Below, piece after piece: positions 3,239-62,646 of a DNA stretch of 64,000 nt. The notes below the pieces were generated by a model that was not told the DNA's origin, ran no database searches, and saw nothing but the letters and a program-made list of their open reading frames with translations. Each line of letters begins with the position of its first letter. The first letter of the stretch is position 1. The translations under genes and the position numbers were made by a program. Source of the DNA: Escherichia phage chee24; the sequence record NC_047885.1; one strand, written 5' to 3'.

Positions 3239-3336
3239 AATAATAAAACTCCATTAAAGGGATTAAAAAACGTTTGTTATTGGCAAATATTGCCAAATAT
3301 AACGCCGCTCATTTACAGCGTTATAATTTGCAACAT

Positions 3337-3582
3337 TTAACTAATTGGCACTAGGCTAGAACTAACACCACAAACAACGGCAGCAATAAAACAAAGTAAG
3401 CCCAAACGCTTTGCTAATTTAGATTTACGTTTAAAATAATACGAATCTAAATCATTTTGAAAATAAGCGAACAATAGGGAGGCCGCTACAATAAATAAGC
3501 CTAAAATTAGCGATTCAGTGGGAAAGAAAACCATTTTAATAACTCCAGTCAAAGGGAAATTATAGTGGGGAATATTCCCCAC
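3337..3582 (-). CDS. small hydrophobic membrane protein (81 aa)
   Basis: ORF with two hydrophobic segments; in pre-early operon. Confidence 0.45.
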   Translation of the reverse strand: MGNIPHYNFPLTGVIKMVFFPTESLILGLFIVAASLLFAYFQNDLDSYYFKRKSKLAKRLGLLCFIAAVVCGVSSSLVPIS

Positions 3583-41095: not shown

Positions 41096-41597
41096 TTTAA
41101 GTATTTTTAAGAACTCTCGTAAAAACTCTTAAAAATACAGACGATACCGGGAGAGTCATAAGTCTCACTCATTAAGTATTTCAAGACAAAATACAGTAAC
41201 GTCTATTATTTTCCAGTTTAAGTCAAGGTGACTTAGTGGTTATGTCCTGCGGTATACTGAGGACTAGGTTAGGTTAGGGTCATGACTCCCCACCTTTTTG
41301 CTGCTACTCAACAGGAGTTATCGCGAATTACCTGTGCTATTGTGCACCATTAGTGGCATCTCTCATGCCAGCATTTCCCACTTTGTGGATAGTTTGAAAA
41401 ACTACTCCGATATGGAGAAAGAACTTCACTATCCTAGAATACCTTCTAAAGTTCTTCTTTAGCCTGGACATAGTTAAATCGTAATAAAACTATTCAGCAG
41501 ACTGGTTGGTTAGTCTGGAACCAACTACCGCGTGGTTTAGGCAGTGCGCAACTAACCTCGGAAGCTTTTACATTAAAAGCACCAGTTATCCAGTTCT

Positions 41598-41670
41598 TAC
41601 CGACCGTAGGATTCGAACCTACATCTTCCACCAGTTACGGCTTGATAATACCGTTTTATACTAGATCGGC
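41598..41670 (-). other. tRNA-like element (acceptor and perfect T-arm; anticodon arm unresolved)
   Basis: T-arm GTAGG-TTCGAAT-CCTAC and acceptor GCCGATC/GGTCGGT; CCA not encoded. Confidence 0.35.
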
Positions 41671-41893
41671 AGTGTTACTACATAAGTGATTTCCACACCC
41701 CACTATCAGTAAATTAGAGAAGAGTTTAGGGGAGAGGTTTCAGACGCCCCATTTTACACGTTCTAGCCACTAACCGGGATTGCCGCCCCCTGTGTACTAG
41801 TTTTCCAACTAACCCACCGACTCTATTCAATGCGCTCCGGTTGGGATTCTGCACTCAGCGTAATCGGCTCGCTGTTCTCTAATTTATGAATAT

Positions 41894-50487: not shown

Positions 50488-52818
50488 TTATAACTGGCAA
50501 CCACCAGAAGCACAACCCGCTGCTTCTTCACCAGCTCCTCCACCATTCGCAGTGTTAAAGTTAGCATAATACCAAGTTTTTATACCGTACTTAACAGCAG
50601 TCATGAAATCACGAACTACTACTGGGCCAGGGATGATTTCATTCTCGAATTTAGAGTAATCATAATACATCTGGAAACTTGATGACTGATTCAAGAATTT
50701 TTGGTAAACGGCGTTCCACTTGATCCACTCAGTGCGATCAATATCATAGGCCAGTTTATAGCTCATGAGAGTATCCCAATCGGTTGCACCTGGAGCAATT
50801 GCAATTACTTTATTCACTGCACTACCCTTGATAGATACAATCTTACGAGGTGGCTCAATTGAGTTGGTAACACCCAATAGTACAGAAGAGCTTTCTCCCG
50901 GCATCTGCGCAGTCAGAACAGAGTTACGCATACCGTATTTCAGAATATCTGCACGCAGAGATTCCCAGTCCATTTCTAGACCTACGGATACCAGTTCATC
51001 AACAGTTTTCTTGTACGTGTCGATTACCAGAGTTCCTTTAGATGGTTTAGTACGATCGAACCATTCACATGCACCTTGCTCTTTGGCTAGACGTACAGAG
51101 GCTTTATGCAGGAAGTAAGACAGTTTTTCAGCCTCACGATGAATCCAGTTACGTGCTTCAACACCTTCGTAGGCCAAACCTTCCGCCGCCATTGCACCTG
51201 CTGCGTTCATCAGACCAATACCAACATTACGACGTTTCTTAGCCGTATATTCCATAGTTGGGAACGGATAATCCTGAATTTCAATGATGGTATCAACGAA
51301 TTTCAGAAGAATATAGCAAGTCTTTTCCCACTCAGCCAGAGATTCCATGCGTCCTAGTACAACACCACCTAAGTTACACAGAGATACTTCCCCAATATCC
51401 TCCGGCTTCATTTGATCAAGTTGTTCTTTTGTTTTATACAGCTCTGTAATGTGGTGGAATGGGCGTGTAGGCTGAGTAATTTCAACACAAAGGTTTGTCA
51501 TACGGATTGGATCAAGGAAGTTACCGTGACGATTAGATTCCCCGATGTGGTGCGCATACATACGTCCTGTTTCCATTCGGATACGTAGCCAGGTATCTAG
51601 GATTTCTTTTGCAGAGACTTTAGGAGCTGCTGGAACTGTTTTTCCTTCGTGGTCGATCTTTGTAAGAGATGCCACACGTTTCTCCGCTGCCACATAAATT
51701 TCTTCAAATTTAGCCTCGTCATCACTATAAAACGCTTCATGAACTTCTGGAGCATAGAAGTATGACATTAGCGTAATATCTTCATTTTTCAGATAACGTT
51801 TTAACAAAAGATTGTTGAAGCTCAGAGAATAATCCATCTTATCGATTTTATTCTCGTCTGTAGCACGTTGTTGCTTAACCTGCATCAACTGGATGATTTC
51901 AGGGTCAAAGTAAGGATAGGATACAGTAGCAGAACCACCACGAGTTTGCTGAGTATTAGCCTTTACTGATCGGTCAATGTGTCGATAATATGGCAGTTTT
52001 CCGGAATGCGGGAATGCCCCATTTCGCACCGGATCAGCAATTGATCGGCTTTCAAGATGATACCCGATTCCCGCTCTGGCTGCGACCATTTTAAAAACGA
52101 TGTGCTCGGCTGTGTCGATTGAATCCAATGTGTCAGTGGAATCAACGAGGCAACAACTAGCAAATCCACGATCACTAGAGCGCAAGCCAACCAATGGCGG
52201 CGTAGGAACGTTGATCTTGTGGAGCGACATTGCATTGTAGAGATCGATTGCATCTAGAATTGTCCAGTTAGGTTGAGATAACATCGCCATTGCCATACCC
52301 ATATAGGCGAATTGCGGAGTTTCGTAAATTTCTCCAGTTGCTATATTACGGCGAGAATACTTATCAAAGAATTGTTTCAGTCCTCCACTAGTGAAAAGAC
52401 GGTCACGATCATGGTCAATAACCTGATTCAAAGCCTCAAACTGCTCATCGGTAATCCATGCACTCATGTCTTCCCATGCACCTACACTAACCATATGATC
52501 ATGGAAGAAGCGTAGAGAAGGTGGTTCAAAGGAATCATAAAGGCGTTTACGCATCTGCGCAAGACGTAATTCCTTTGCTGGCACGTCGTATGCTGGATTA
52601 TCTTTGATAAGACTTTCAGCAGCCTTAATTAAAGCATCCATCAGAGTGTCGGAATCTACAACCCCTTTGGGCAGAGTTTTTTGAGCAGCCATAGTAATGG
52701 CTGACCAACTTACATCAACTGTTTTGCAACCATACTCCGCCCAACCATTGAGTTTTTCAGGAGCAAAGTCTTCTACAGTACCGTCACGTTTAATTACTTT
52801 TTCAATGCGATGGCTCAT
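50488..52818 (-). CDS. nrdA: ribonucleotide reductase class Ia large subunit
   Basis: Start at internal ATG (MSHRIEKVIKRDG, ATP-cone) with AAGGAAA RBS; track ORF extends to 52923; C-terminal Cys pair. Confidence 0.9.
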   Translation of the reverse strand: MSHRIEKVIKRDGTVEDFAPEKLNGWAEYGCKTVDVSWSAITMAAQKTLPKGVVDSDTLMDALIKAAESLIKDNPAYDVPAKELRLAQMRKRLYDSFEPPSLRFFHDHMVSVGAWEDMSAWITDEQFEALNQVIDHDRDRLFTSGGLKQFFDKYSRRNIATGEIYETPQFAYMGMAMAMLSQPNWTILDAIDLYNAMSLHKINVPTPPLVGLRSSDRGFASCCLVDSTDTLDSIDTAEHIVFKMVAARAGIGYHLESRSIADPVRNGAFPHSGKLPYYRHIDRSVKANTQQTRGGSATVSYPYFDPEIIQLMQVKQQRATDENKIDKMDYSLSFNNLLLKRYLKNEDITLMSYFYAPEVHEAFYSDDEAKFEEIYVAAEKRVASLTKIDHEGKTVPAAPKVSAKEILDTWLRIRMETGRMYAHHIGESNRHGNFLDPIRMTNLCVEITQPTRPFHHITELYKTKEQLDQMKPEDIGEVSLCNLGGVVLGRMESLAEWEKTCYILLKFVDTIIEIQDYPFPTMEYTAKKRRNVGIGLMNAAGAMAAEGLAYEGVEARNWIHREAEKLSYFLHKASVRLAKEQGACEWFDRTKPSKGTLVIDTYKKTVDELVSVGLEMDWESLRADILKYGMRNSVLTAQMPGESSSVLLGVTNSIEPPRKIVSIKGSAVNKVIAIAPGATDWDTLMSYKLAYDIDRTEWIKWNAVYQKFLNQSSSFQMYYDYSKFENEIIPGPVVVRDFMTAVKYGIKTWYYANFNTANGGGAGEEAAGCASGGCQL

Positions 52819-53161
52819 TTGGCTTTCCTTTTTATGGTTATCAGGATTTAAGGAATATTCTACTTTATTATTGGTCATTAGGCAAATAAAATTTTCTGAT
52901 AGAAAAGGCCCGAGTATTTTCATACCCAGGCCTTCTGTGTTGTCAGTCTAGTTTTTGGCCACTTAAGTTCTCAGCAGAATATCTATTGAGGTACTTAGTT
53001 CATTATAATTGAAGGGCCGATTTGGATTTGAGGTTACAATTTTCCACGCTAGGGTAGTCTTAGGACTTTCTTCCCCTTCCTTACGTGTAATCATATTAGC
53101 AGCACTCAGTGAAGTACGATGTATTTTAGTTTTACGGTGTAGATGTACAACGTCTCCCATA

Positions 53162-53923
53162 TTACACCTTCCCCATGTCTTTAAAAATATCGTAGAATGC
53201 TTTAGACTCAACAGAACGAACGTTATCAATCAATTCGATCATTGAGAATGGAGCATTTTCATATTTCTCATAAACTTCCATAAGAAGTGCTAGACCTGAG
53301 TCACCTTTAATGTCTTTCTGAGCTATATCCCCGCAGATAATTAAACGGCAGTCTTGTCCTACACGAGTTAGGAGACAAATCATTGCCTCAACGGAAATAT
53401 TCTGAGCTTCATCGACAATTACATAGGAGTTGTTGAAAGTTCTGCCACGAGCATGTTCTATAGCCAAAAATTTAATTTTCTGACGTTCGACATACCCCTT
53501 ATAGGCATGATCACCGATGGCCCATTTCATACCATCAGCTATTGGCTCTAACCAAGGCTCTAGCTTTTCTGCTAGATCACCAGGAAGCATACCAAGAGAC
53601 TTACCTAGAGGTTCATTAGGACGTACGAGGATCACTTGCTCAATATCTGAGTGAATGTCTACGAGTTCCTGAGCTGCAAGAACAGACGGGATAAAGGTTT
53701 TACCAGTACCTGGCTCACCAATACCCACAGTCACTGTGTTGTTCTTGATCATATTGATATATGATTTTTGCTCTCGGTTTTTACCTACTAGGGATTTAGC
53801 AACTGGGTTAGCGTAATCATTAGAAAAATCAGCCTGAATTACGTTATTCTCATATTTGTTGCCACGCTTTCTTGAACCATTGCGGTTCTCTCTTTTTTGA
53901 CGTGCTTTTCCCATAAATAACAC
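53162..53923 (-). CDS. phoH: PhoH-like ATPase
   Basis: 253 aa; Walker A GEPGTGKT and PhoH-like core. Confidence 0.8.
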   Translation of the reverse strand: MLFMGKARQKRENRNGSRKRGNKYENNVIQADFSNDYANPVAKSLVGKNREQKSYINMIKNNTVTVGIGEPGTGKTFIPSVLAAQELVDIHSDIEQVILVRPNEPLGKSLGMLPGDLAEKLEPWLEPIADGMKWAIGDHAYKGYVERQKIKFLAIEHARGRTFNNSYVIVDEAQNISVEAMICLLTRVGQDCRLIICGDIAQKDIKGDSGLALLMEVYEKYENAPFSMIELIDNVRSVESKAFYDIFKDMGKV

Positions 53924-54226
53924 TCCTATAGTGTACTTCGCTAACAGAGGATCAACAAAAAGATCTTGTTTATCAACTTACAAATATATTATACCAGTAT
54001 ATGCAGTAAAAAGCAACTACAATTTTAAATAAGCCTATGATATTGCATTTAAATAAAAAATTTGCTTGCTTTTAACGGGAAATGTATGGTATTAGATAAT
54101 CATTTTATACCGCGTACATAGGCGCGTGATTATACTATTTTAAGTACAAAATAGCAAATAAATTTTTTAACAATTTGCTAACCTTTTAGCACAGATCAAA
54201 ATACAATATCTAAGAGAAAAATTATA

Positions 54227-54255
54227 TTGACATTTGCCCTTGAATAAGCTATAAT
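54227..54255 (+). promoter_or_regulatory. consensus sigma70 promoter (TTGACA-N17-TATAAT) for nrdD
   Basis: Perfect -35 and -10 hexamers with 17-nt spacer, about 30 nt upstream of nrdD ATG. Confidence 0.75.
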
Positions 54256-54284
54256 AGTAGTCTTAGTTAGAGAAGGAGAGTATA

Positions 54285-56159
54285 ATGAATCGTAATGAAG
54301 AACTAAAGTATAAAGAAATGCAGGCGTTAATTAGAAACTGCAAAGAGATTATCGAAGGATCAGCAGATGAAGAGCTGCTGTTTAATAATGCCAATAAACC
54401 CTCAGAACGTTTCCCTACACAAAGGGATATGCTTGCAGGTGAATTGAGTAAGTATCTGATTCTAGAAGAAATGCCAATTCAGATTCGAAATGCTCATATG
54501 ATTGGGGATATTCATTTCCATGATGCTGATTATGCCGCGTTAGGCATGACTAACTGTTGTCTGGTAGCTCTGGAAGATATGTTGAAGAATGGTATGAAGG
54601 TTGGTAATGCTGAAATTAGCACTCCAAACTCTATCACTACTGCTGCTGCTATTACAGCTCAGATTATCACACAGGTTAGCTCCCATCAGTATGGTGGTAC
54701 TTCTGTAGACCGATTAGATGAAGTATTAGCCCCTTATGTTCGTAAGTCCTATGATAAAAATCATGCGTTTGCAAAACGTTGGACTAAGGATGAAGCCAAA
54801 GCATCCGTAATGGCTACGGAGATGACTGAAAAAGAAGTCTATGACGCTTGTCAGGGTTTAGAATATGAAATCAATACCATGTTCAACTCTAATGGTCAGA
54901 GTCCATTTATTACCTTTGGTTTTGGTCTAGGAACTTCTTGGGAAGCACGTCTAGTACAGAGGGCAATACTGAAAGTACGCATGGATGGTTTAGGTATCAA
55001 TAAACGTACAGCTATCTTTCCTAAACTGGTATTTGTACTTCGTGATGGCGTAAATATGAAACCAGGAGATGTTAATTATGACATCAAGAAGTTAGCTATG
55101 AAATGTACTGCTGAACGTATGTATCCAGATTATATCAGCTATGACAAAGTTGTAGAAGTTACTGGAGACTACAAAGTTTCTATGGGCTGCCGTTCATTCC
55201 TAGCTGCTGCAGAAGATGGTGAAACTGCTGGCCGTAATAACTTAGGTGTTGTTTCTGTAAACTTGCCTAGAATTGCTATCGAAGCTGAAGGAAATATTGA
55301 TCTATTCTTTGATTTGCTTGAGCTACGTGTGGATACAGCGTTAAAAGCATTGGAGTGGAGAGTTGATCGCTTAAAATACATCCAAGCTAAAGCTGCACCC
55401 ATCCTCTATATGTCAGGAGCCTTTGGGTTACGCTTGGAGCCTGATGAATATGTATTTGATCATTTTTATAACCGTGCTTCTGTATCTCTGGGGTATATTG
55501 GTTGCCATGAAATGCTACAGTTCATGTTTGGCAAAGATGTAGACACAATGTCCGAGACCTGCATCAAGTTTGTTCAGCGTGTATTGCAGTACATGCGGGA
55601 TAGAGTCGATCAGAAGAAGGAAGAAACTAAGTTAGGTTATAGCCTGTATGCTACACCATCAGAATCCCTATGTGACCGTTTTTGTCGTCTAGACCGTGAA
55701 TATTTCCCGGAGCATGAAGATATTCTGTCCAAAGGATACTACACTAACTCTCACCACCTTGATGTGGAACGTAAAGTTGCTCCTAACGTGAAATTTGATT
55801 ATGAATCTAATTTTACTCCAATTGCATCTGGTGGGTGTATTTCCTACGTGGAATTACCAGACATGAAACGATTCCCGGATGCACTGGAATGGGTTATTAA
55901 CTATGCTGCTAGTAAGGTTCATTACTTTGGTATTAATACTCCAGTGGATTCTTGTGGTAAATGTGGATTCTTGGGTGAGACAGTAGCATCCGAAGATGGA
56001 TTTAAGTGCCCTATCTGTGGTAATCATGACCCTGAAACTCTTGAAGTAACTCGTCGAGTTTGTGGGTATCTTGGAAATCCAGGCGCTCGTCCGTTTAACC
56101 CAGGCAAACAACATGAGGTTATGGGCAGGGTGAAACATCAGGATATTCGAGCTAAATAA
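54285..56159 (+). CDS. nrdD: anaerobic ribonucleoside-triphosphate reductase (class III)
   Basis: 624 aa; C-terminal Cys cluster and glycyl-radical motif RRVCGY; consensus promoter and RBS upstream. Confidence 0.85.
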   Translation: MNRNEELKYKEMQALIRNCKEIIEGSADEELLFNNANKPSERFPTQRDMLAGELSKYLILEEMPIQIRNAHMIGDIHFHDADYAALGMTNCCLVALEDMLKNGMKVGNAEISTPNSITTAAAITAQIITQVSSHQYGGTSVDRLDEVLAPYVRKSYDKNHAFAKRWTKDEAKASVMATEMTEKEVYDACQGLEYEINTMFNSNGQSPFITFGFGLGTSWEARLVQRAILKVRMDGLGINKRTAIFPKLVFVLRDGVNMKPGDVNYDIKKLAMKCTAERMYPDYISYDKVVEVTGDYKVSMGCRSFLAAAEDGETAGRNNLGVVSVNLPRIAIEAEGNIDLFFDLLELRVDTALKALEWRVDRLKYIQAKAAPILYMSGAFGLRLEPDEYVFDHFYNRASVSLGYIGCHEMLQFMFGKDVDTMSETCIKFVQRVLQYMRDRVDQKKEETKLGYSLYATPSESLCDRFCRLDREYFPEHEDILSKGYYTNSHHLDVERKVAPNVKFDYESNFTPIASGGCISYVELPDMKRFPDALEWVINYAASKVHYFGINTPVDSCGKCGFLGETVASEDGFKCPICGNHDPETLEVTRRVCGYLGNPGARPFNPGKQHEVMGRVKHQDIRAK

Positions 56160-56898: not shown

Positions 56899-57738
56899 GT
56901 GAGGAATTGTACAGTGCGTAGATTAATTATTATCAGTGGTGCAGGTTTGAGTGTTGAAAGTGGTGTACGAGCCTTCCGTACTGATACTGCTAGTGGTAAA
57001 GCATTGTGGGATGATTATGACTTAGAAGAGGTATGTAATATTCATGCCTTTCGTGGTAACTTTTATCATAAAACCCATATGTTTTACAACAAGCGACGTG
57101 AAGAGCTAGAAACTGTTGAACCTAACCTTGCGCATCTTCGTATTGGTGAGTGGTATAAGAAATATCCGGGTCAAGTAGTAAATTTGACTACTAACGTTGA
57201 TGACCTTATTGAGCGTGCTGGTGTTCCCCATAATGATATTCTCCACATTCATGGATACTTAAAGGAGGTTGTTGTAGCTGATAGCTATAATAGTAGCAAT
57301 AAACGAGTTATTGATGTTGGGTATAGCTCTATTGACCCAGATGATTATAAATGGGTTAAACCTAATGTAATCTTCTTTGGTGAGCATGCTCCAGCGTACG
57401 CAGAAATGTACAATATTTTTGATGGTATTACTAGTCAAGATATGATCGTTGTAGTTGGTTGCTCTAACCAAGTAATTAATTTCTACTGGGAATTATTTCC
57501 TATTCTTAACCGTACTGCTGCGAAACTTATGGTGGTTAACTACTACGATAGTGCCCTAGCGGCAGAACCAGGCTATCAAGGTATGACTCGTAGTGATATG
57601 TACCAGTTGGAAGATCGTGGTATTCCTTACTGGAGTAAAGGTGCGGTAGATGCTTTCAGTGATCCTGGTTTTATTGCTCGTGTAGAAGCTCATCTAGAGG
57701 GTAGACCTTATATGCCGGGAAAACAAATATGTCCATAG
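56899..57738 (+). CDS. Sir2-family NAD-dependent deacetylase/ADP-ribosyltransferase-like protein
   Basis: 279 aa; N-terminal Rossmann motif GAGLSVESGVRAFR matches sirtuin GAGIS.ESG..FR; true start may be GTG at 56914 (RBS GAGGAA). Confidence 0.7.
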   Translation: MRNCTVRRLIIISGAGLSVESGVRAFRTDTASGKALWDDYDLEEVCNIHAFRGNFYHKTHMFYNKRREELETVEPNLAHLRIGEWYKKYPGQVVNLTTNVDDLIERAGVPHNDILHIHGYLKEVVVADSYNSSNKRVIDVGYSSIDPDDYKWVKPNVIFFGEHAPAYAEMYNIFDGITSQDMIVVVGCSNQVINFYWELFPILNRTAAKLMVVNYYDSALAAEPGYQGMTRSDMYQLEDRGIPYWSKGAVDAFSDPGFIARVEAHLEGRPYMPGKQICP

Positions 57739-58406: not shown

Positions 58407-58835
58407 ATGTTCAATAATGTATTTTCTAAAGAAGCTAACCCAATATTGGTTAATTTTTGGCGTACTCTTCCAGCCAATCTGTACAATGAGGCTATTAACT
58501 CCTTGAAAATATGGTGTGAGAATAACGAAATCTCCTTTGCTTTTAAAGATGATATTGATGAGGCTCCCTGTATTGGTTTAATTGTTCAGGTAGAGGAGGG
58601 TCTTGAAGAAATTGTCGGTTGGAAAGAGTTAGATGAAATGGGCTTAGTTTTTGCGTTAAACTATAAGCTGTTTATGCCTGCTAAGCATCGCCTCGTTGTT
58701 AACTATAAAACTAGTGAATCTCCTGGTTTTCAGGTTAATGAACGTTATGGTTGGTCTTACTCACCGGAAGAAGTAAATGAGGGGATTCAGAAACTTCGAC
58801 ATTTCGGGTATATGATCCCAGGTTTAACTGCTTAA
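58407..58835 (+). CDS. hypothetical protein, paralog A (142 aa)
   Basis: ORF; shares DDxPCIG, ELxxMGLxxALN, YxPGL motifs with the next ORF. Confidence 0.55.
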   Translation: MFNNVFSKEANPILVNFWRTLPANLYNEAINSLKIWCENNEISFAFKDDIDEAPCIGLIVQVEEGLEEIVGWKELDEMGLVFALNYKLFMPAKHRLVVNYKTSESPGFQVNERYGWSYSPEEVNEGIQKLRHFGYMIPGLTA

Positions 58836-58844
58836 GGAGGCAGA

Positions 58845-59237
58845 ATGGAACAAGTATATTGGCGTCAGATTGACCCTAGTTTGGTGAAACGTGCGGAGAA
58901 GCTGCTACAACGTTGGTTGGGGGTAAGACAAGTCTCCTTCACTTTTCCGGAGCAGCAAACGGATGATCCATGCATTGGCGTTTTCCTGTCTGGATATGCC
59001 GGGGAATGGGAATTGGATTGGAATGAATTGTCTGCTATGGGCTTGATTGTTGCCCTAAACTTCTCTTTGTTCCATCCACGTGGTTTGGCCATATGTCGTG
59101 TGCCTGATGATGGTTGTTCGCCCCATCTTTTACAGGTGGAAGATGATATTTGGGAGTACACTCCAGATATTCTCACAGAAGCTAAAGAACAATTAAATCG
59201 TGTTGGGATTTATGTTCCGGGCTTAAATGATGAATGA
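58845..59237 (+). CDS. hypothetical protein, paralog B (130 aa)
   Basis: ORF with AAGGAGG RBS; paralog of 58407-58835. Confidence 0.55.
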   Translation: MEQVYWRQIDPSLVKRAEKLLQRWLGVRQVSFTFPEQQTDDPCIGVFLSGYAGEWELDWNELSAMGLIVALNFSLFHPRGLAICRVPDDGCSPHLLQVEDDIWEYTPDILTEAKEQLNRVGIYVPGLNDE

Positions 59238-59328
59238 TTTTTATTAGCTGAACTCTGATTACCGAGTCATTTTGGCTCGGTTTTATCCGTACTCAAGACC
59301 AATGATAGCACCATCCGGAAAATTTTAC

Positions 59329-59357
59329 TTGCATGATGCCCAAAATCTTGATATAAT
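59329..59357 (+). promoter_or_regulatory. sigma70 promoter (TTGCAT-N17-TATAAT)
   Basis: Starts a 500-nt ORF-poor leader upstream of the helicase-like gene. Confidence 0.55.
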
Positions 59358-59856
59358 ATTTATATTGAATTGAGAGACATTAGTAAAAATTGATTTTGCT
59401 AATTTTTCTTGTTTACAATCCGCGATACGGAACAGTTAGGCTGCCCCATTAAGGGTTGTTTTAACTGTTACGTGTTAGTTTTTAAACAAATAGTTAATAG
59501 AATACTTAGCGATCTGCGTCCCGTAGGAACCCTGGTAAGGCCTCGAAGCAACCTAGATAGAGGTGGTTGTGAAGTGAGACGGGAGGAGTGAAAAACTCCG
59601 AGACGTGATTCTGTAAGTTATATTGCATCTAGTATGAGCTAGTATATGAAGCATTAGGTGAGCAAATCTGGCTTAGCGGCCATCCTCAAGGATTTGTGCG
59701 GTATAGCAAAGCAGCAGCGCAGCGTGAAAGTGGAAGTTGCCACCCCACTTCAGTATTTGCGATTAATTTGTTGAGAAATTGACAGTAACAGTTGTTCTAT
59801 TCTTTCTGAATAGTCCTAAAGAAAACTTATTTCATTTCCAACACAGGAGTATTGTT

Positions 59857-62646
59857 GTGTTTTCAATCCTACAAGGTCATGCAGGATTTCATCGCGATTT
59901 AGCCACAGGCAATTGGCGAGAAGTTAAAGCAGAAGATTATCTTTTTGCTAAAAGATTTTCCTCAAAGCATCCTGAAGGTAAACCAGCTTCAATGCCCTTC
60001 AAGTTTGATGTAATTGACGAAGTTGATCCTCAAACCCTAGTAGAAATGCTTCCTCTTATGAGACGTTTAACGTCTGACCCTCATATCGTTGCGGTACGAG
60101 GTCGATGTCTTGCACCTAAAAATAATGTGCGACGTAAGAAGGGCAACTTTAATGTATCTAATCCAAGTCATATAATCGCAATGGATGTGGATGGTATTGT
60201 AGATACAGGAGGTTGTAACAAGTTTGATCTTGTTGGCATGGCGCGTCATATTATTAGGATGTTGAATAGTATTAGTGAGGATATGTTTCCTCTTGATGCA
60301 GGGTTTATTGCTCATGCATCATCTTCGGCTGGACTAAAACCAGGTATCCGAATGCACTTAATACTAGAATCTAATGTTAAAGTTACACAGGGCCAGATCA
60401 AGTTCTTATTTACATCTATCAACGAAAGTAGTAGACAAAAGTATGGTTTTGATATTGCCGACTTAGCTTATTACTCTTCCGTACAGCTCCACTATTTTGC
60501 AGATCCTTTATTTACTGATGGTATAGTTGATCCGTTTAAAGCGGAGAGTGCTTCACGTCTGGTATTTGTTAAAGGCTCAAAAGTAAATTTACCTAATAAT
60601 CTAGTTGACTATGAAACAACTAGAGGAGAGTTTAAAGAGGAATTCTACTCTTTACTCGATCAAATTAAAGGTAAAAAAGCTGCCTCTGATAAAGTAGAGG
60701 AAACTATCAGTGAGCTAGAAGAGGCTGATGATGGGGTATACTTACGTATTATTCCAAAGCTATATCACCGAGCGTTAGAGGATGGGGTAGATTTTGGTTG
60801 GCTAGAGAAAGAAATCCGCCCAGCTTTATCAGAATATATTGCAACTAAAGATAATAGCCGTAATATTCAGGATTATTTCAATAACGGACGGAAGCAGGCA
60901 TTAAAAGCCTTTGTGAATAACTCTAAGCGTGAGATCCCTGAAGTATTAAAAGGTATCCCCCTTAAAAAGCTAGAAACTAACTCACTAGAGACCGACAACT
61001 TCTTGAAATTAAATACTGTACCACCAGAAGGCTATATGACTTTTGTAAAAGCAAGTCTAGGTACAGGTAAAACCACGGCTGTTGTTCGTTGGCTGGATTC
61101 AGGGGTTATTAAAGGTAATTTCTTAGCAATTACCAATACTAGGGCACTAGTGTCTTCAAATGCTAAGAAATTTAGCGCAGGTCAATATGATAAATCTGTA
61201 GATATGCTCAACTTTAAACGTGGGGCTATTGATCGTATGTCCACAACCATTCACTCTTTGCATAAGTTTAAGAGTTTTATTGGTCAAATTGATGCAATCT
61301 TTATAGATGAATGTGATGCAGTAATGAATGACCTATTATTCGCCCCGGTTGTTAAGCAACGTCGCGAGTGTATTCAGGTTCTTCGAGATATTCTTGCAAC
61401 TGCAAAAATAATTATATTATCTGATGGAGATATTAGTGCAGAAACAATTGAAGCATATGGTTCTTTGATTGAGTTTGATAAACCAGTTGCATTTTACAAT
61501 CACCACCGTAAAATGTTATCAAAGGCTCATGCTTATGAGTTTCCTGATGAATCCAGTATTTGGGTTGCACTTCAAACATCACTAGAGATGGGTGAGAAAT
61601 CTATTCTAGTATCTGATTGTGGCCCTGATGAGCTGAATGAGAAGGGTATGGCACTACGTCGTAATACTGGTGCGTTAGTTAAGGAAATCCATTCAAACTC
61701 TACCTCAGATGTGGATATTCGACGTATTCTGGATTATACAACTAATGAGCTAATTGATCAACAAATTGATTGCTTATTATGTAGTCCATCCGTAACGAGT
61801 GGTGTTGACTTCAACTATTTTGATAACGTATTCGTTATTACTAGAACCAGTAATCAAGCGCCAAACATGCGTTTTCAAGCAATCAGGCGCGACCGTGGTG
61901 CTCAGAACATCTATTATTTTATTGATAAATCCACTAGTGGATTCTCCGCAGGTTCTGAACAATATAATATTGATGAAGGTTGGCTGGAGTTAGCACAGCA
62001 ATTATACGCACGTCGCAGGGAGCTGGAATCTAGAAACTATACTAGTACCTTACGTTATTACTTGCTTGATCAGGGTGCAACTATTGATATTTTCAGCGAA
62101 AGCTGGGGAACTATTGAAGGTGCTGGTAAAGAGTACACAGAAGAGCGAATCAAAGCTATTCTACATTCAACCCCGGATTATTGTGCTCCACGTCATGCGG
62201 ATGCGTATGAAGCTAAACTACTTCTTGTTCGCTATTATCATCTTGAGTCTATTAAAGATGTAACAGTTGAGCATGTTGAACAATATATCAAAGATAAACC
62301 GAATGATCGAGCTGCATTCTTCCATAAGATGCACGAGATGTTCTGGGAAGATATTAAGAAGTGTTCAAATATAACCATTAAACCATTCATAGAAGCTCTA
62401 AAAGGTAAGAAAAAGGACTTCTTCCTTAAAACAGGTCAGAGTGCTAACCCAAAATATGCTAGAATGTATCTTGGTATGATGGGTATCGGTAAGGATATGA
62501 ACACTGAAAATATCGTAGACTGGTATAGAACCTACTGCAAAATCGAGTGTATGCCAATTCCTTATAAGTTCATGACTGATGAGGAAAAACATATGCACGA
62601 TGAAGCAATGTCAGAACTAGGTGCTAGAAATGACAGTGAAGAATAA
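59857..62646 (+). CDS. P-loop NTPase/helicase-like protein (candidate replication origin-binding helicase)
   Basis: GTG start with AGGAG RBS inside track ORF 59779-62646; Walker A GTGKTT and Walker B FIDECD in central region. Confidence 0.65.
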   Translation: MFSILQGHAGFHRDLATGNWREVKAEDYLFAKRFSSKHPEGKPASMPFKFDVIDEVDPQTLVEMLPLMRRLTSDPHIVAVRGRCLAPKNNVRRKKGNFNVSNPSHIIAMDVDGIVDTGGCNKFDLVGMARHIIRMLNSISEDMFPLDAGFIAHASSSAGLKPGIRMHLILESNVKVTQGQIKFLFTSINESSRQKYGFDIADLAYYSSVQLHYFADPLFTDGIVDPFKAESASRLVFVKGSKVNLPNNLVDYETTRGEFKEEFYSLLDQIKGKKAASDKVEETISELEEADDGVYLRIIPKLYHRALEDGVDFGWLEKEIRPALSEYIATKDNSRNIQDYFNNGRKQALKAFVNNSKREIPEVLKGIPLKKLETNSLETDNFLKLNTVPPEGYMTFVKASLGTGKTTAVVRWLDSGVIKGNFLAITNTRALVSSNAKKFSAGQYDKSVDMLNFKRGAIDRMSTTIHSLHKFKSFIGQIDAIFIDECDAVMNDLLFAPVVKQRRECIQVLRDILATAKIIILSDGDISAETIEAYGSLIEFDKPVAFYNHHRKMLSKAHAYEFPDESSIWVALQTSLEMGEKSILVSDCGPDELNEKGMALRRNTGALVKEIHSNSTSDVDIRRILDYTTNELIDQQIDCLLCSPSVTSGVDFNYFDNVFVITRTSNQAPNMRFQAIRRDRGAQNIYYFIDKSTSGFSAGSEQYNIDEGWLELAQQLYARRRELESRNYTSTLRYYLLDQGATIDIFSESWGTIEGAGKEYTEERIKAILHSTPDYCAPRHADAYEAKLLLVRYYHLESIKDVTVEHVEQYIKDKPNDRAAFFHKMHEMFWEDIKKCSNITIKPFIEALKGKKKDFFLKTGQSANPKYARMYLGMMGIGKDMNTENIVDWYRTYCKIECMPIPYKFMTDEEKHMHDEAMSELGARNDSEE

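What the first reader, a model, noticed from the sequence alone, without database searches (positions are those of the whole stretch)
59358..59856. 500-nt structured non-coding leader upstream of the helicase-like gene
From the promoter at 59329-59357 to the GTG start at 59857 there is no convincing ORF (the 60-aa track ORF has no RBS). The region is comparatively GC-rich and contains multiple hairpins such as GGAGTGAAAAACTCC. It may be a replication origin next to its binding protein, a regulatory RNA, or a riboswitch-like leader.
Basis: inference. Interest (0 to 1): 0.5.

Follow-up and report, generated by a model that had tools for sequence, protein, structure and literature searches.

The report
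Large structured RNA before D2 helicase
The 500-base "gap" in front of the D2 replication-helicase gene of this T5-like phage encodes a large, intricately folded RNA that compensating mutations keep intact across many T5-like phages; it matches no described RNA family, so it is a new candidate functional RNA, of unknown role, in a classic model phage.

Summary
The window is a T5-like phage (Tequintavirus). A terminator (59261-59286) and a strong extended -10 promoter (59329-59357, T5 "P32") are followed by about 493 nt with no conserved ORF, up to the GTG of D2/obp (59857).

The stretch is a real structured RNA on the + strand. In near-identical genomes, 27 base pairs change on both sides and stay paired (shuffles 6.5±1.5; slid controls 2-6). 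A second allele group shows 7 such pairs (slid controls 0-1). Sixteen helices sit at the same positions in 6-8 lineages whose cores are only about 45-60% identical: Escherichia/Salmonella, Klebsiella, Pectobacterium, Pantoea, Providencia.

All about 442 E. coli/Salmonella T5-like genomes carry one of two very different core alleles (162-165 vs 277 records), each highly conserved. The allele tracks a D2 segment (aa 350-400).

No Rfam family matches and no paper was found. There are no iterons, no skew turn, no terminator and no conserved SD-sequestering helix.

Function is unproven. My best guess is an autonomous protein-binding RNA domain co-transcribed with D2. Rivals are a trans-acting RNA/RNP partner and an origin-priming transcript.

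The parts
59261..59286 (+). Intrinsic terminator ending the upstream DUF7415 gene pair (ACCGAG...CUCGGU + U-run). It sets the RNA unit apart from upstream transcription.
   Evidence: Sequence; inverted repeat I14; annotated as a terminator in T5 and Lindwurm.
59329..59357 (+). Sigma-70 early promoter: TTGCAT, 17 nt, TG-a-TATAAT. The start is inferred near A59364.
   Evidence: T5P32 annotation; equivalent promoters in T5, Epseptimavirus, Klebsiella, L063, My1 and PR1.
59372..59410 (+). P1, a 5' clamp hairpin. Outer stem GAGAGA/UUUCUU, 1x1 loop, inner stem UUAGUAAAA/UUUUGCUAA.
   Evidence: Starts 14-16 nt after the -10 box in 5 lineages, with entirely different stem sequences; RNAalifold.
59415..59459 (+). 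P2 domain. Stem ACAAUCC/GGGUUGU encloses the near-invariant hairpin ACGGAACAGUUAGGCUGCCCCA (59427-59448).
   Evidence: This segment is 98-100% identical even where flanking genes are 60-85% identical. Compensatory changes occur in Klebsiella and AAS21.
59463..59506 (+). P3 5' strand. A long-range, A+U-rich, imperfect helix of about 40 bp that closes the core (core part AACUGUUAC).
   Evidence: Pairs with 59752-59793 (helices 5-6). Replaced by other complementary sequences in L063, My1, AAS21, Klebsiella and PR1.
59752..59793 (+). P3 3' strand (core part GUAACAGUU, 59785-59793).
   Evidence: As for the 5' strand.
59509..59518 (+). P4 5' strand: GCG-AU-CUGCG. It pairs with CGCAG-CGU at 59718-59725.
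   Evidence: Two positions switch GC<->AU together inside the window-type group and UA<->CG in the T5 group. It reads CUACA/UGUAG in L063 and My1, and CUAGAA/UUCUAG in Klebsiella.
59718..59725 (+). P4 3' strand.
59520..59583 (+). P5 arm. CCCGU/ACGGG closes two hairpins: CCU-GGUA-AGG (59531-59540) and GCAACC...GGUUGU (59548-59570).
   Evidence: Compensatory changes in helices 8, 10 and 11. The stem reads GCCGU/ACGGC, UUCG/CGAA or UGCGG/CCGCG in other lineages.
59585..59599 (+).
   Evidence: GC<->AU<->CG at columns 253/268. It reads CCGU/ACGG, AGGG/CCCU or GGUC/GACC elsewhere.
59600..59607 (+). Conserved single-stranded junction GAGACGUG (GAGAAGUG in relatives).
   Evidence: Alignments.
59618..59706 (+). 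P7 three-way arm. It has a closing helix (59618-59626 with 59698-59706), a variable hairpin P7a (59627-59659) and P7b (59663-59668 with 59691-59696). P7b carries the invariant hairpin GGC-UUAGCG-GCC (59670-59681).
   Evidence: The arm is 92-99 nt and folds to the same three-way junction in 8 lineages. Covariation is seen. A model built from window-type sequences alone puts its best hit here in AAS21 (52 bits), PR1 (E 0.006), L063, T5, Epseptimavirus, Klebsiella and My1.
59728..59750 (+). P8 hairpin AAGUGG-loop-CCACUU. The loop is AAGUUGCCACC.
   Evidence: UA<->GC switch at columns 401/417. Equivalent hairpins occur in 7 lineages.
59797..59813 (+). P9 hairpin CUAUUC-UUUCU-GAAUAG, just 3' of P3. 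No U-run follows it.
   Evidence: It is not terminator-like.
59845..59849 (+). Shine-Dalgarno sequence AGGAG of D2.
   Evidence: RBS annotated in Lindwurm and Stitch.
59857..62646 (+). D2/obp gene, an SF2 'replication origin binding' helicase. Its aa 350-400 segment tracks the RNA allele.
   Evidence: Pfam Herpes_ori_bp; PDB herpesvirus OBP; the T5 D2 bipolar helicase paper PMC3632103; allele association.

Best explanation
Host RNA polymerase starts at the strong early promoter (59329-59357) and makes a leader of about 493 nt. The leader folds into one defined RNA. It has a 5' clamp hairpin (P1) and an almost invariant hairpin domain (P2). It also has a core of about 330 nt closed by a long-range helix of about 40 bp (P3). 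The core is a multi-way junction with arms P4-P8, including the invariant hairpin GGC-UUAGCG-GCC. Selection acts on this RNA fold, not on a protein or on duplex DNA.

I propose that it is an autonomous RNA domain, made on the same transcript as the D2 helicase, that acts as a specific protein-binding platform. The partner would most likely be D2 itself or another early replication or host factor. Binding would set how much D2 is made or how the D2 message is processed. The long P3 duplex is a likely RNase III entry point that would separate the folded RNA from the D2 message.

Shown: the promoter, the absence of an ORF, the fold, the covariation, the conservation, the two alleles and their association with a D2 segment. 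Inferred: protein binding, RNase III cleavage and the regulatory outcome.
For: - The promoter, the terminator and the D2 start are all real.
- No ORF is conserved.
- Covariation in the window-type alignment: 27 pairs change on both sides, against 6.5±1.5 in shuffles and 2-6 in slid controls, with 97.9% of cells paired.
- Covariation in the T5/Epseptimavirus alignment: 7 such pairs against 0-1 in slid controls, with 99.4% of cells paired.
- The + strand folds better than the - strand: -125.6 vs -90.3 and -110.7 vs -86.4 kcal/mol.
- Sixteen helices occur at the same positions in lineages whose cores are 43-62% identical.
- The fold is registered to the transcription start. P1 begins 14-16 nt after the -10 box, the 5' motif lies at +66-71, and UUAGCGG lies at +304-316.
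- In this locus the RNA always sits directly before D2 on the same strand, with no terminator between them.
- All about 442 E. coli/Salmonella T5-like records keep one of the two alleles.
- The leader is the best-conserved segment of the locus in a divergent genome: 92-99% identical against 56-86% in the flanks (L011).
- The core allele tracks D2 aa 350-400 in 30 of 30 loci, including recombinants.
Against: - In Proteus phage Stubb, D2 has its own perfect consensus promoter 36 nt before the ATG. A second perfect promoter drives the ~700-nt noncoding stretch upstream. D2 expression therefore need not depend on the RNA there.
- No SD-pairing partner is conserved. The SD pairs with different local sequences in each lineage.
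- The helix predicted between 59406-59412 and the SD region shows no covariation (helix 1).
- In PR1 and PSTCR5, about 175 nt of poorly conserved spacer separates P3 from D2.
- The association between the allele and the D2 segment could be simple linkage, since the two lie only 1.1-1.3 kb apart and there are only two alleles.
- There are no transcript, binding or cleavage data.
Confidence: 0.4

Rival explanations
1. It is a stand-alone, trans-acting stable RNA. The core would be excised from the leader, or simply be long-lived, and work away from its own message. It could be an RNP partner of D2 or the replisome, or a decoy or inhibitor aimed at a host factor or defence. Co-transcription with D2 would only ensure early, strong expression.
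For: - The architecture is compact and self-closing, sealed by a long helix. It has a 5' clamp and its own strong promoter.
- No expression platform is conserved.
- In Stubb there are separate promoters for the noncoding stretch and for D2.
- Two deeply diverged, individually conserved alleles exist, and arm P7a is hypervariable. This suggests a specificity or arms-race surface.
- In PR1 against PSTCR5 the core is conserved while the 3' spacer is not.
Against: - No terminator or other defined 3' end was found.
- The RNA lies immediately before D2 in every lineage examined, which a purely trans-acting RNA would not need.
- No second copy is present in the window, and bacterial genomes gave only chance hits.
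Confidence: 0.25
2. It is an origin-associated transcript. Transcription from the early promoter would activate or prime T5 DNA replication next to the initiator-like helicase. The RNA fold would be needed to form or position an RNA-DNA hybrid, as in ColE1 RNA II, T4 oriF/oriG or the T7 primary origin.
For: - The RNA is adjacent to D2, which is UL9-like and was proposed as a replication initiator (PMC3632103).
- A strong promoter directly precedes the site.
- The A+T-rich arms of P3 could act as an unwinding element.
- The site lies near the middle of the ~120-kb genome.
- The allele tracks a D2 segment.
Against: - No iterons or repeated binding sites are present.
- The cumulative GC skew turns near 54 kb, not here.
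- A recombitron study reports a strand bias in T5 that fits dominant replication from one genome end (PMC10055335).
- Sixteen covarying helices are more than a priming transcript is known to need.
- Nothing here tests hybrid formation.
Confidence: 0.15
3. It is a metabolite- or ion-sensing riboswitch, or a similar ligand-sensing leader, that tunes D2 translation or transcription.
For: It lies in a 5' leader, and some junction and loop nucleotides are conserved: the UUAGCG loop, the GAGAAGUG junction and the P2 hairpin.
Against: - No Rfam aptamer matches in any lineage, even at E<=10.
- There is no terminator or antiterminator.
- No SD-sequestering helix is conserved.
- At about 440 nt it is far larger than known aptamers.
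- The two alleles differ in most loops and junctions.
Confidence: 0.05
4. It is a DNA-level element only: a duplex origin or binding site for D2, or single-stranded DNA hairpins formed on unwinding (as proposed for herpesvirus OriS*). In that case the RNA would be incidental.
For: The site is adjacent to a UL9-like helicase. DNA hairpins would also produce covariation.
Against: - The structure is registered to the transcription start in all lineages.
- G-U pairs are frequent: 22-24 pair columns have G-U as the majority, and there are almost no A-C cells. The complementary strand folds markedly worse.
- The long-range helix spans about 240 nt and the junctions are multi-way, which is implausible for transient ssDNA.
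- No repeated duplex motifs are present.
Confidence: 0.05
5. The region encodes a small protein, either the 60-aa or the 38-aa ORF.
For: ORFs exist at 59409-59591 and 59658-59774. Some automatic annotations call 'hypothetical proteins' here.
Against: - The starts are TTG or GTG with no SD, and there is no family match.
- The 60-aa ORF is cut to 21 codons in T5 and Epseptimavirus.
- No ORF is shared in position or frame between lineages, and every frame carries 8-25 stops.
- The substitutions are compensatory for base pairs rather than showing a codon pattern.
Confidence: 0.02

Closest known systems
Lambda N-gene leader and T7 early mRNA RNase III sites (long structured phage leaders processed by RNase III)
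   Same: It is an early phage transcript made by the host polymerase. A long imperfect duplex lies tens of nucleotides before the RBS of a key early gene. The leader could bind the gene's own product.
   Different: Those elements are single extended hairpins of about 50-200 nt. This one is a ~440-nt RNA with 16 helices and conserved junctions. No nut-like site is evident and cleavage is untested. There is no sequence or Rfam relationship.
ColE1 RNA II, and the T4 oriF/oriG and T7 primary-origin transcripts
   Same: A promoter fires into a region beside replication functions. In ColE1 the fold of a ~550-nt RNA matters, and its sequence types diverge with stem covariation.
   Different: No antisense partner, hybrid-forming G/C tract or mapped origin is known here. 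The GC-skew turn is elsewhere. No homology was found.
Large 'ornate' phage- and bacteria-associated RNAs of unknown function (GOLLD, ROOL, OLE, HEARO/omega RNA)
   Same: It is a large, multi-helix, covariation-supported RNA that is phage-borne and of unknown function.
   Different: No Rfam model of these families matches. This RNA is smaller and tied to one gene context (before D2). It lies about 18 kb from the tRNA cluster at 28-42 kb, so it does not share that context.
Retron msr/msd and DRT2 ncRNAs (a structured RNA encoded just upstream of, and co-transcribed with, the nucleic-acid enzyme that recognises it)
   Same: The gene order is promoter, structured RNA, enzyme. RNA types are deeply diverged and appear to track a segment of the enzyme.
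   Different: The enzyme is an SF2 helicase with an uncharacterised N-terminal domain, not a reverse transcriptase. No msd-like inverted repeats are present. Any RNA-protein contact is purely hypothetical.
phi29-family pRNA
   Same: It is a phage RNA whose secondary structure is kept while the sequence differs strongly between related phages.
   Different: pRNA is about 120-174 nt and acts in DNA packaging, in a different genome context. There is no similarity.

Membership tests
Any Rfam 15 family (4227 models, including riboswitches, RNase P, 6S, tmRNA, GOLLD/ROOL/OLE/HEARO and ribozymes) | A covariance-model match at or near the gathering score | tested here: not met
   The window at gathering score gives only tRNAs. 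Positions 59200-59900 at E<=10 give only noise of 13-15 bits. Thirteen related loci at E<=0.1 give only one sub-threshold, unrelated hit outside the element.
Riboswitch | A match to a known aptamer class | tested here: not met
Riboswitch | An expression platform: a terminator/antiterminator or a conserved SD-sequestering helix | tested here: not met
   There is no terminator between the promoter and D2. The SD pairs with different partners in each of 8 lineages. The predicted helix between 59406-59412 and the SD shows no covariation (helix 1).
Riboswitch | Ligand-dependent conformational change | not testable with these tools
   This needs in-line or SHAPE probing.
Iteron-type replication origin | Three or more direct repeats (initiator binding sites) | tested here: not met
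   Only two-copy chance repeats of 9-17 nt were found in 59200-59900.
Iteron-type replication origin | An A+T-rich unwinding element next to the initiator gene | tested here: inconclusive
   The P3 arms are A+T-rich and D2 is adjacent. However, these arms covary as an RNA helix.
Replication origin (any kind) | A strand-composition (GC-skew) turn at the site | tested here: not met
   Cumulative skew rises steadily through 57-62 kb. The minimum is near 54 kb, where gene orientation switches.
Replication origin (any kind) | A mapped initiation of DNA synthesis | not testable with these tools
   This needs marker-frequency or nascent-strand mapping. The papers I could read describe T5 replication as less well studied and cite only an electron-microscopy report of multiple origins.
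Transcript-primed origin (ColE1 RNA II, T4 oriF) | A promoter firing into the region, and a folded transcript | tested here: met
Transcript-primed origin (ColE1 RNA II, T4 oriF) | A persistent RNA-DNA hybrid and a 3' end used as a primer | not testable with these tools
   This needs R-loop mapping and primer-end mapping.
RNase III-processed phage leader | A duplex of about 20 bp or more, upstream of the regulated RBS | tested here: met
   P3, 59463-59506 with 59752-59793, has about 38 pairs and small internal loops. It lies 63 nt before the start codon.
RNase III-processed phage leader | Cleavage by RNase III, with an effect on expression | not testable with these tools
   This needs 5'-end mapping in an rnc host and in vitro cleavage.
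Protein-coding small gene | An ORF conserved in frame and position, with a translation start signal | tested here: not met
Bacterial RNase P RNA (considered because ACAGAAC...GGCU recalls its CR-V region) | A match to the RNase P covariance models and the conserved regions CR-I to CR-V | tested here: not met
   No RNase P hit appears even at E<=10. The resemblance was recalled from memory and covers about 15 nt only.

The most novel reading that the evidence does not exclude
The RNA is an obligatory, type-specific partner of the D2 initiator helicase. It would form a ribonucleoprotein, or act as an RNA-primed or RNA-guided device, that decides where or how T5-like phages start DNA replication. 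The two deeply diverged RNA alleles and the matching D2 segment would then form two 'specificity groups'. This would be a new kind of RNA-dependent replication initiation in a double-stranded DNA phage.
Probability: 0.12. Interest if true: 0.9.

Novelty: categorically new. Interest (0 to 1): 0.66.

Why it matters
Even so, the sequence-level origin and the start of T5 DNA replication remain unresolved in the papers I could read.

This analysis shows that the unannotated gap before the D2 helicase gene holds a large RNA family under strong structural selection. The family is present in every one of the ~442 E. coli/Salmonella T5-like records that matched. It also occurs in phages of Klebsiella, Pectobacterium, Pantoea and Providencia.

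This gives RNA biologists a new large structured RNA with abundant natural covariation. It also offers two natural alleles for swap experiments in a tractable system. For phage biologists it is a concrete, testable candidate for how D2 and early replication are controlled.

Automatic annotations that place 'hypothetical proteins' here should be corrected.

Tried and rejected
- **Pattern scan of metagenomes** with the 5' motif. Eight contigs are true T5-likes. Nine hits with TTAGCGG at +112 looked like a short version of the RNA. They proved to be copies of one bacterial coding sequence, identical over the stretch displayed, so they are chance matches.
- **The same scan of bacterial genomes** gave 14 hits in unrelated taxa, none of them enteric hosts of T5-like phages. 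I took them as chance matches and did not inspect them further.
- **Cross-lineage MAFFT alignments** misalign the helices, and MAFFT's structure-aware mode (Q-INS-i) could not be run. I therefore used within-allele alignments for statistics and checked cross-lineage helices by script.
- **Model R1** (arm P7, built from window-type sequences only) finds the right place in 8 lineages. Beyond AAS21, PR1 and L063 the scores are weak (E 0.1-2). It finds nothing in Proteus, Serratia, Vibrio or Aeromonas phages, and no paralogue in the window.
- **Model R2** (P2 hairpin) finds nothing outside the lineages it was built from. Membership of the large noncoding stretches before obp in Stubb, Kamaji, JSF12 and TS3 stays open. 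The only link is a 30-nt, 80% match of TS3 to the P2 motif.
- **RNase P-like, tmRNA and tRNA-like readings** were rejected.
- **An SD-sequestration switch** is not conserved.
- **Iterons and a GC-skew origin signal** are absent.
- **The D2 N-terminal domain.** The word-indexed protein search returned only two fragments. The single-sequence AlphaFold model was unusable, with pLDDT 34. Profile searches of PDB and Pfam found nothing.
- **Literature.** Searches for a T5 leader RNA, transcriptome or mapped origin found nothing specific. The 1976 electron-microscopy paper on T5 origins is not held.

Full report
**What the window is.** The region 59200-59900 is 100% identical to 'T5-like pork27' and related Tequintavirus genomes, and 536 phage records match it. 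The gene that starts at 59857 is T5 D2/obp. It carries the Pfam Herpes_ori_bp domain and resembles solved herpesvirus origin-binding proteins. It has been characterised biochemically as an unusual bipolar SF2 helicase and proposed as a replication initiator (PMC3632103).

**Checking the observation.** The upstream DUF7415 gene ends at 59237 and is followed by an intrinsic terminator at 59261-59286. In T5 the terminator is annotated at the same place. Next comes TTGCAT, 17 nt, then TG-a-TATAAT at 59329-59357. This is the site annotated 'putative early promoter T5P32' in T5.

Equivalent promoters precede leaders of 474-619 nt in T5, Epseptimavirus, Klebsiella Sugarland-like phages, an unnamed lineage (L063), Pectobacterium My1 and Providencia PR1/PSTCR5. 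The GTG at 59857, with AGGAG at 59845-59849, is the true start. The same codon is ATG in three lineages, and protein conservation begins there. G+C is only modestly raised.

**The region is not coding.** The 60-aa ORF has a TTG start, no SD and no family match. In T5 and Epseptimavirus it stops after 21 codons. No ORF is shared between lineages, and all three frames carry 8-25 stops in every lineage.

**It is a structured RNA.** The single sequence folds better than its shuffles, with z = -2.8. The decisive evidence is comparative.

- *Window-type group.* I aligned 12 near-identical window-type leaders plus Pantoea phage AAS21, where the alignment is unambiguous. RNAalifold predicts 143 pairs.
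  - 97.9% of cells are paired.
  - 27 pairs change on both sides while staying paired. Shuffles give 6.5±1.5 (0 of 500 reach 27). Sliding the partners by 1-3 columns gives 2-6.
  - Several of these switches occur among genomes that are 93-100% identical: CUGCG/CGCAG to CUACA/UGUAG, CCCGU/ACGGG to CCCAU/AUGGG, GGAG/CUCC to AGAG/CUCU, and GUGG/CCAC to GGGG/CCCC.
- *T5/Epseptimavirus group.* In 11 sequences, 99.4% of cells are paired and 7 pairs change on both sides. Slid controls give 0-1.
- *Strand.* The sense strand gives much lower consensus energies than its complement: -125.6 vs -90.3 and -110.7 vs -86.4 kcal/mol. G-U pairs are common and A-C cells almost absent. This fits an RNA made from the promoter.
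- *Caveat.* The structures were predicted on the same alignments, so the 'percent paired' figures are flattered. The double substitutions are not affected by this.

**Architecture.** Coordinates are in the parts list. P1 is a 5' hairpin at 59372-59410. P2 (59415-59459) encloses the near-invariant hairpin ACGGAACAGUUAGGCUGCCCCA. P3 is a long-range, A+U-rich helix of about 40 bp (59463-59506 with 59752-59793) that closes the core.

Inside the core:
- P4: GCG-AU-CUGCG pairs with CGCAG-CGU.
- P5: an arm with two hairpins.
- A conserved junction, GAGAAGUG.
- P7: a three-way arm of 92-99 nt. Its inner branch carries the invariant GGC-UUAGCG-GCC hairpin (59670-59681).
- P8: a hairpin.

P9, at 59797-59813, lies outside the core. 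About 30 nt then lead to the SD.

A script confirmed complementary strands for these helices. They sit at the same positions (within about 10 nt) in the window phage, AAS21, L063, My1 and the Klebsiella phage. Most of them are also present in T5 and Epseptimavirus, and a subset in PR1. The core sequences of these lineages are only 43-62% identical to one another.

The fold is registered to the transcription start. P1 begins 14-16 nt after the -10 box, the P2 motif lies at +66-71, and UUAGCGG lies at +304-316.

A covariance model of arm P7 built only from window-type sequences puts its best hit at the right place in seven other lineages. The scores are AAS21 52 bits, PR1 E = 0.006 and L063 E = 0.03, with weaker hits in the others.

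**Two alleles.** Between the window phage and T5, flanking DNA is 76-100% identical, but 59457-59756 is only 33-59% identical. The central 300 nt has been replaced by a version of the same length.

In the phage collection, 162-165 records carry the window-type core and 277 carry the T5/Epseptimavirus type. Together these account for all about 442 records that match the leader, so I saw no E. coli/Salmonella T5-like genome without it.

The opposite pattern appears in L011. Its flanking genes are only 56-86% identical to the window, yet its leader is 92-99% identical. The first 100 nt (P1-P2) are 98-100% identical in all of them.

The core allele coincides with the type of a short D2 segment, aa 350-400 just before the Walker A motif. 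That segment is at least 90% identical within an allele group and 60-68% identical between groups. This holds in 30 of 30 loci, including genomes recombinant elsewhere in D2. It could reflect co-adaptation or plain linkage.

**Testing the interpretations.**
- *Origin.* There are no iterons. There is no skew turn here; the turn lies near 54 kb, where gene orientation switches. The conserved property is RNA-type pairing. A transcript-dependent origin cannot be excluded and remains a rival. The papers I could read call T5 replication less well studied; they cite an old electron-microscopy report of multiple origins, and one of them reports a strand bias that fits dominant replication from one genome end.
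- *Riboswitch.* No aptamer matches. There is no terminator. No SD-sequestering partner is conserved in eight lineages. The two alleles share few loop or junction nucleotides.
- *Simple cis-regulatory leader.* The constant position before D2 speaks for it. Against it, Proteus phage Stubb has perfect consensus promoters both before its ~700-nt noncoding stretch and 36 nt before D2. In addition, PR1 and PSTCR5 have a poorly conserved 175-nt spacer after P3 while their core is almost invariant.

The core therefore behaves as an autonomous unit.

**Best explanation.** I commit, at 0.4, to an autonomous protein-binding RNA domain co-transcribed with D2 that controls D2 synthesis or processing, with P3 as a probable RNase III site. 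Close behind are a trans-acting RNA/RNP partner (0.25) and an origin-priming transcript (0.15).

**Comparison with known systems.** No Rfam 15 family matches any lineage. Seven full-text searches found no description of it.

It works most like long RNase III-processed phage leaders (lambda N, T7 early mRNAs). By gene order it resembles enzyme-associated ncRNAs such as retron or DRT2 RNAs. By size and unknown function it resembles the 'ornate' large RNAs. It fails every membership test that could be run (see the table).

I therefore rate it as a new RNA family with no known relatives. Its mechanism, and hence whether it is a new kind of system, is open.

**Limits.**
- All evidence is computational.
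- The covariation statistics rest on two allele groups whose members are related by descent.
- Cross-lineage helices were assigned by eye and verified only for complementarity and position.
- Homology of the P5/P6 half between the two alleles is not established.
- Models R1 and R2 did not detect the element in Proteus, Serratia, Vibrio or Aeromonas T5-like phages, although those phages also have large ORF-poor stretches before obp.

Noticed in passing
window 59857-61020 (D2 aa 1-388): The N-terminal ~390 aa of D2 has no Pfam or PDB match. Even so, it keeps family-wide invariant residues D110-x-D112, A154-S-x-S-x-G...R165-x-H167 and D202, from E. coli to Vibrio and Aeromonas phages. From memory only, this recalls motifs I-III of archaeo-eukaryotic primase/PrimPol enzymes. 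The single-sequence AlphaFold model was unusable (pLDDT 34).
   Followed up: partly
window 60907-61056 (D2 aa 350-400): This short D2 segment, just before the Walker A motif, exists in two forms about 66-68% identical to each other. The form coincides with the RNA core allele in 30 of 30 loci. This may be co-adaptation or linkage.
   Followed up: partly
L031 1457-1553 (also L010, L022): Some genomes carry an insertion of about 97 nt, with its own hairpin (AUUUACGG/CCGUAAAU), between P1 and P2 of the RNA. The P1-P2 spacing is therefore tolerant.
   Followed up: partly
L012 1300-1505 (also L008, L098, L025): Another gene is inserted upstream of the leader. Read by eye from the DNA, its C-terminus looked like a homing endonuclease, but it was not tested against any family library. 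It brings a different promoter (TTGCAAGGGAGTATTATTTTATAGTATAAT) in front of the same RNA. L025 carries both promoters in tandem.
   Followed up: no
L135 1681-2500 (Proteus phage Stubb): An 820-nt 'low gene density' stretch lies before obp. A perfect 12/12 sigma-70 promoter with TG sits at its start, and a second perfect promoter sits 36 nt before obp. The stretch holds a CCUUAGCGGG hairpin and a PR1-like 5' motif, but neither covariance model detects it.
   Followed up: partly
L074 19-1608 (Aeromonas phage TS3); L071 1-1041 (Vibrio phage JSF12); L070 1368-1800 (Serratia phage Kamaji): Distant T5-like phages also have large stretches before obp: 1.6 kb in TS3, over 1 kb in JSF12 and 0.43 kb in Kamaji. 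None has an annotated gene. Only the TS3 stretch was checked for ORFs; its longest is 55 aa. TS3 has three TTAGCGG and a 30-nt, 80% match to the P2 motif.
   Followed up: partly
L029/L030 columns 297-327 of alignment A12: PR1 and PSTCR5 leaders are almost identical through the core, apart from one hypervariable patch at the position of arm P7a. By eye it still forms a helix in both. The spacer 3' of P3 is rich in indels.
   Followed up: no
window about 52000-56000: The GC skew changes sign and cumulative skew reaches its minimum near 54 kb, where gene orientation appears to switch from - to +. If skew marks anything replication-related in this phage, it points here rather than at the D2 leader.
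   Followed up: no
window 41597-41671 (- strand): ARAGORN calls a tRNA-Ser with the unusual anticodon ACT. Its Rfam tRNA score is among the weakest of the 26-gene tRNA cluster, at 34.5 bits.
   Followed up: no
window 58407-59237: Two adjacent paralogous DUF7415 genes lie directly upstream of the RNA unit, preceded by a Sir2-like gene at 56899-57738.
   Followed up: no
phage collection records MG065692 and others: Records labelled 'Campylobacter phage C13' and 'Listeria phage' carry this T5-like locus at 88-99% identity. Host labels or assemblies in the collection may be wrong.
   Followed up: no
window 3262-3345 (- strand): This is the best off-target hit of the P7-arm model in the window, at 17.1 bits and E 0.04. 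It is A+T-rich and probably chance.
   Followed up: no
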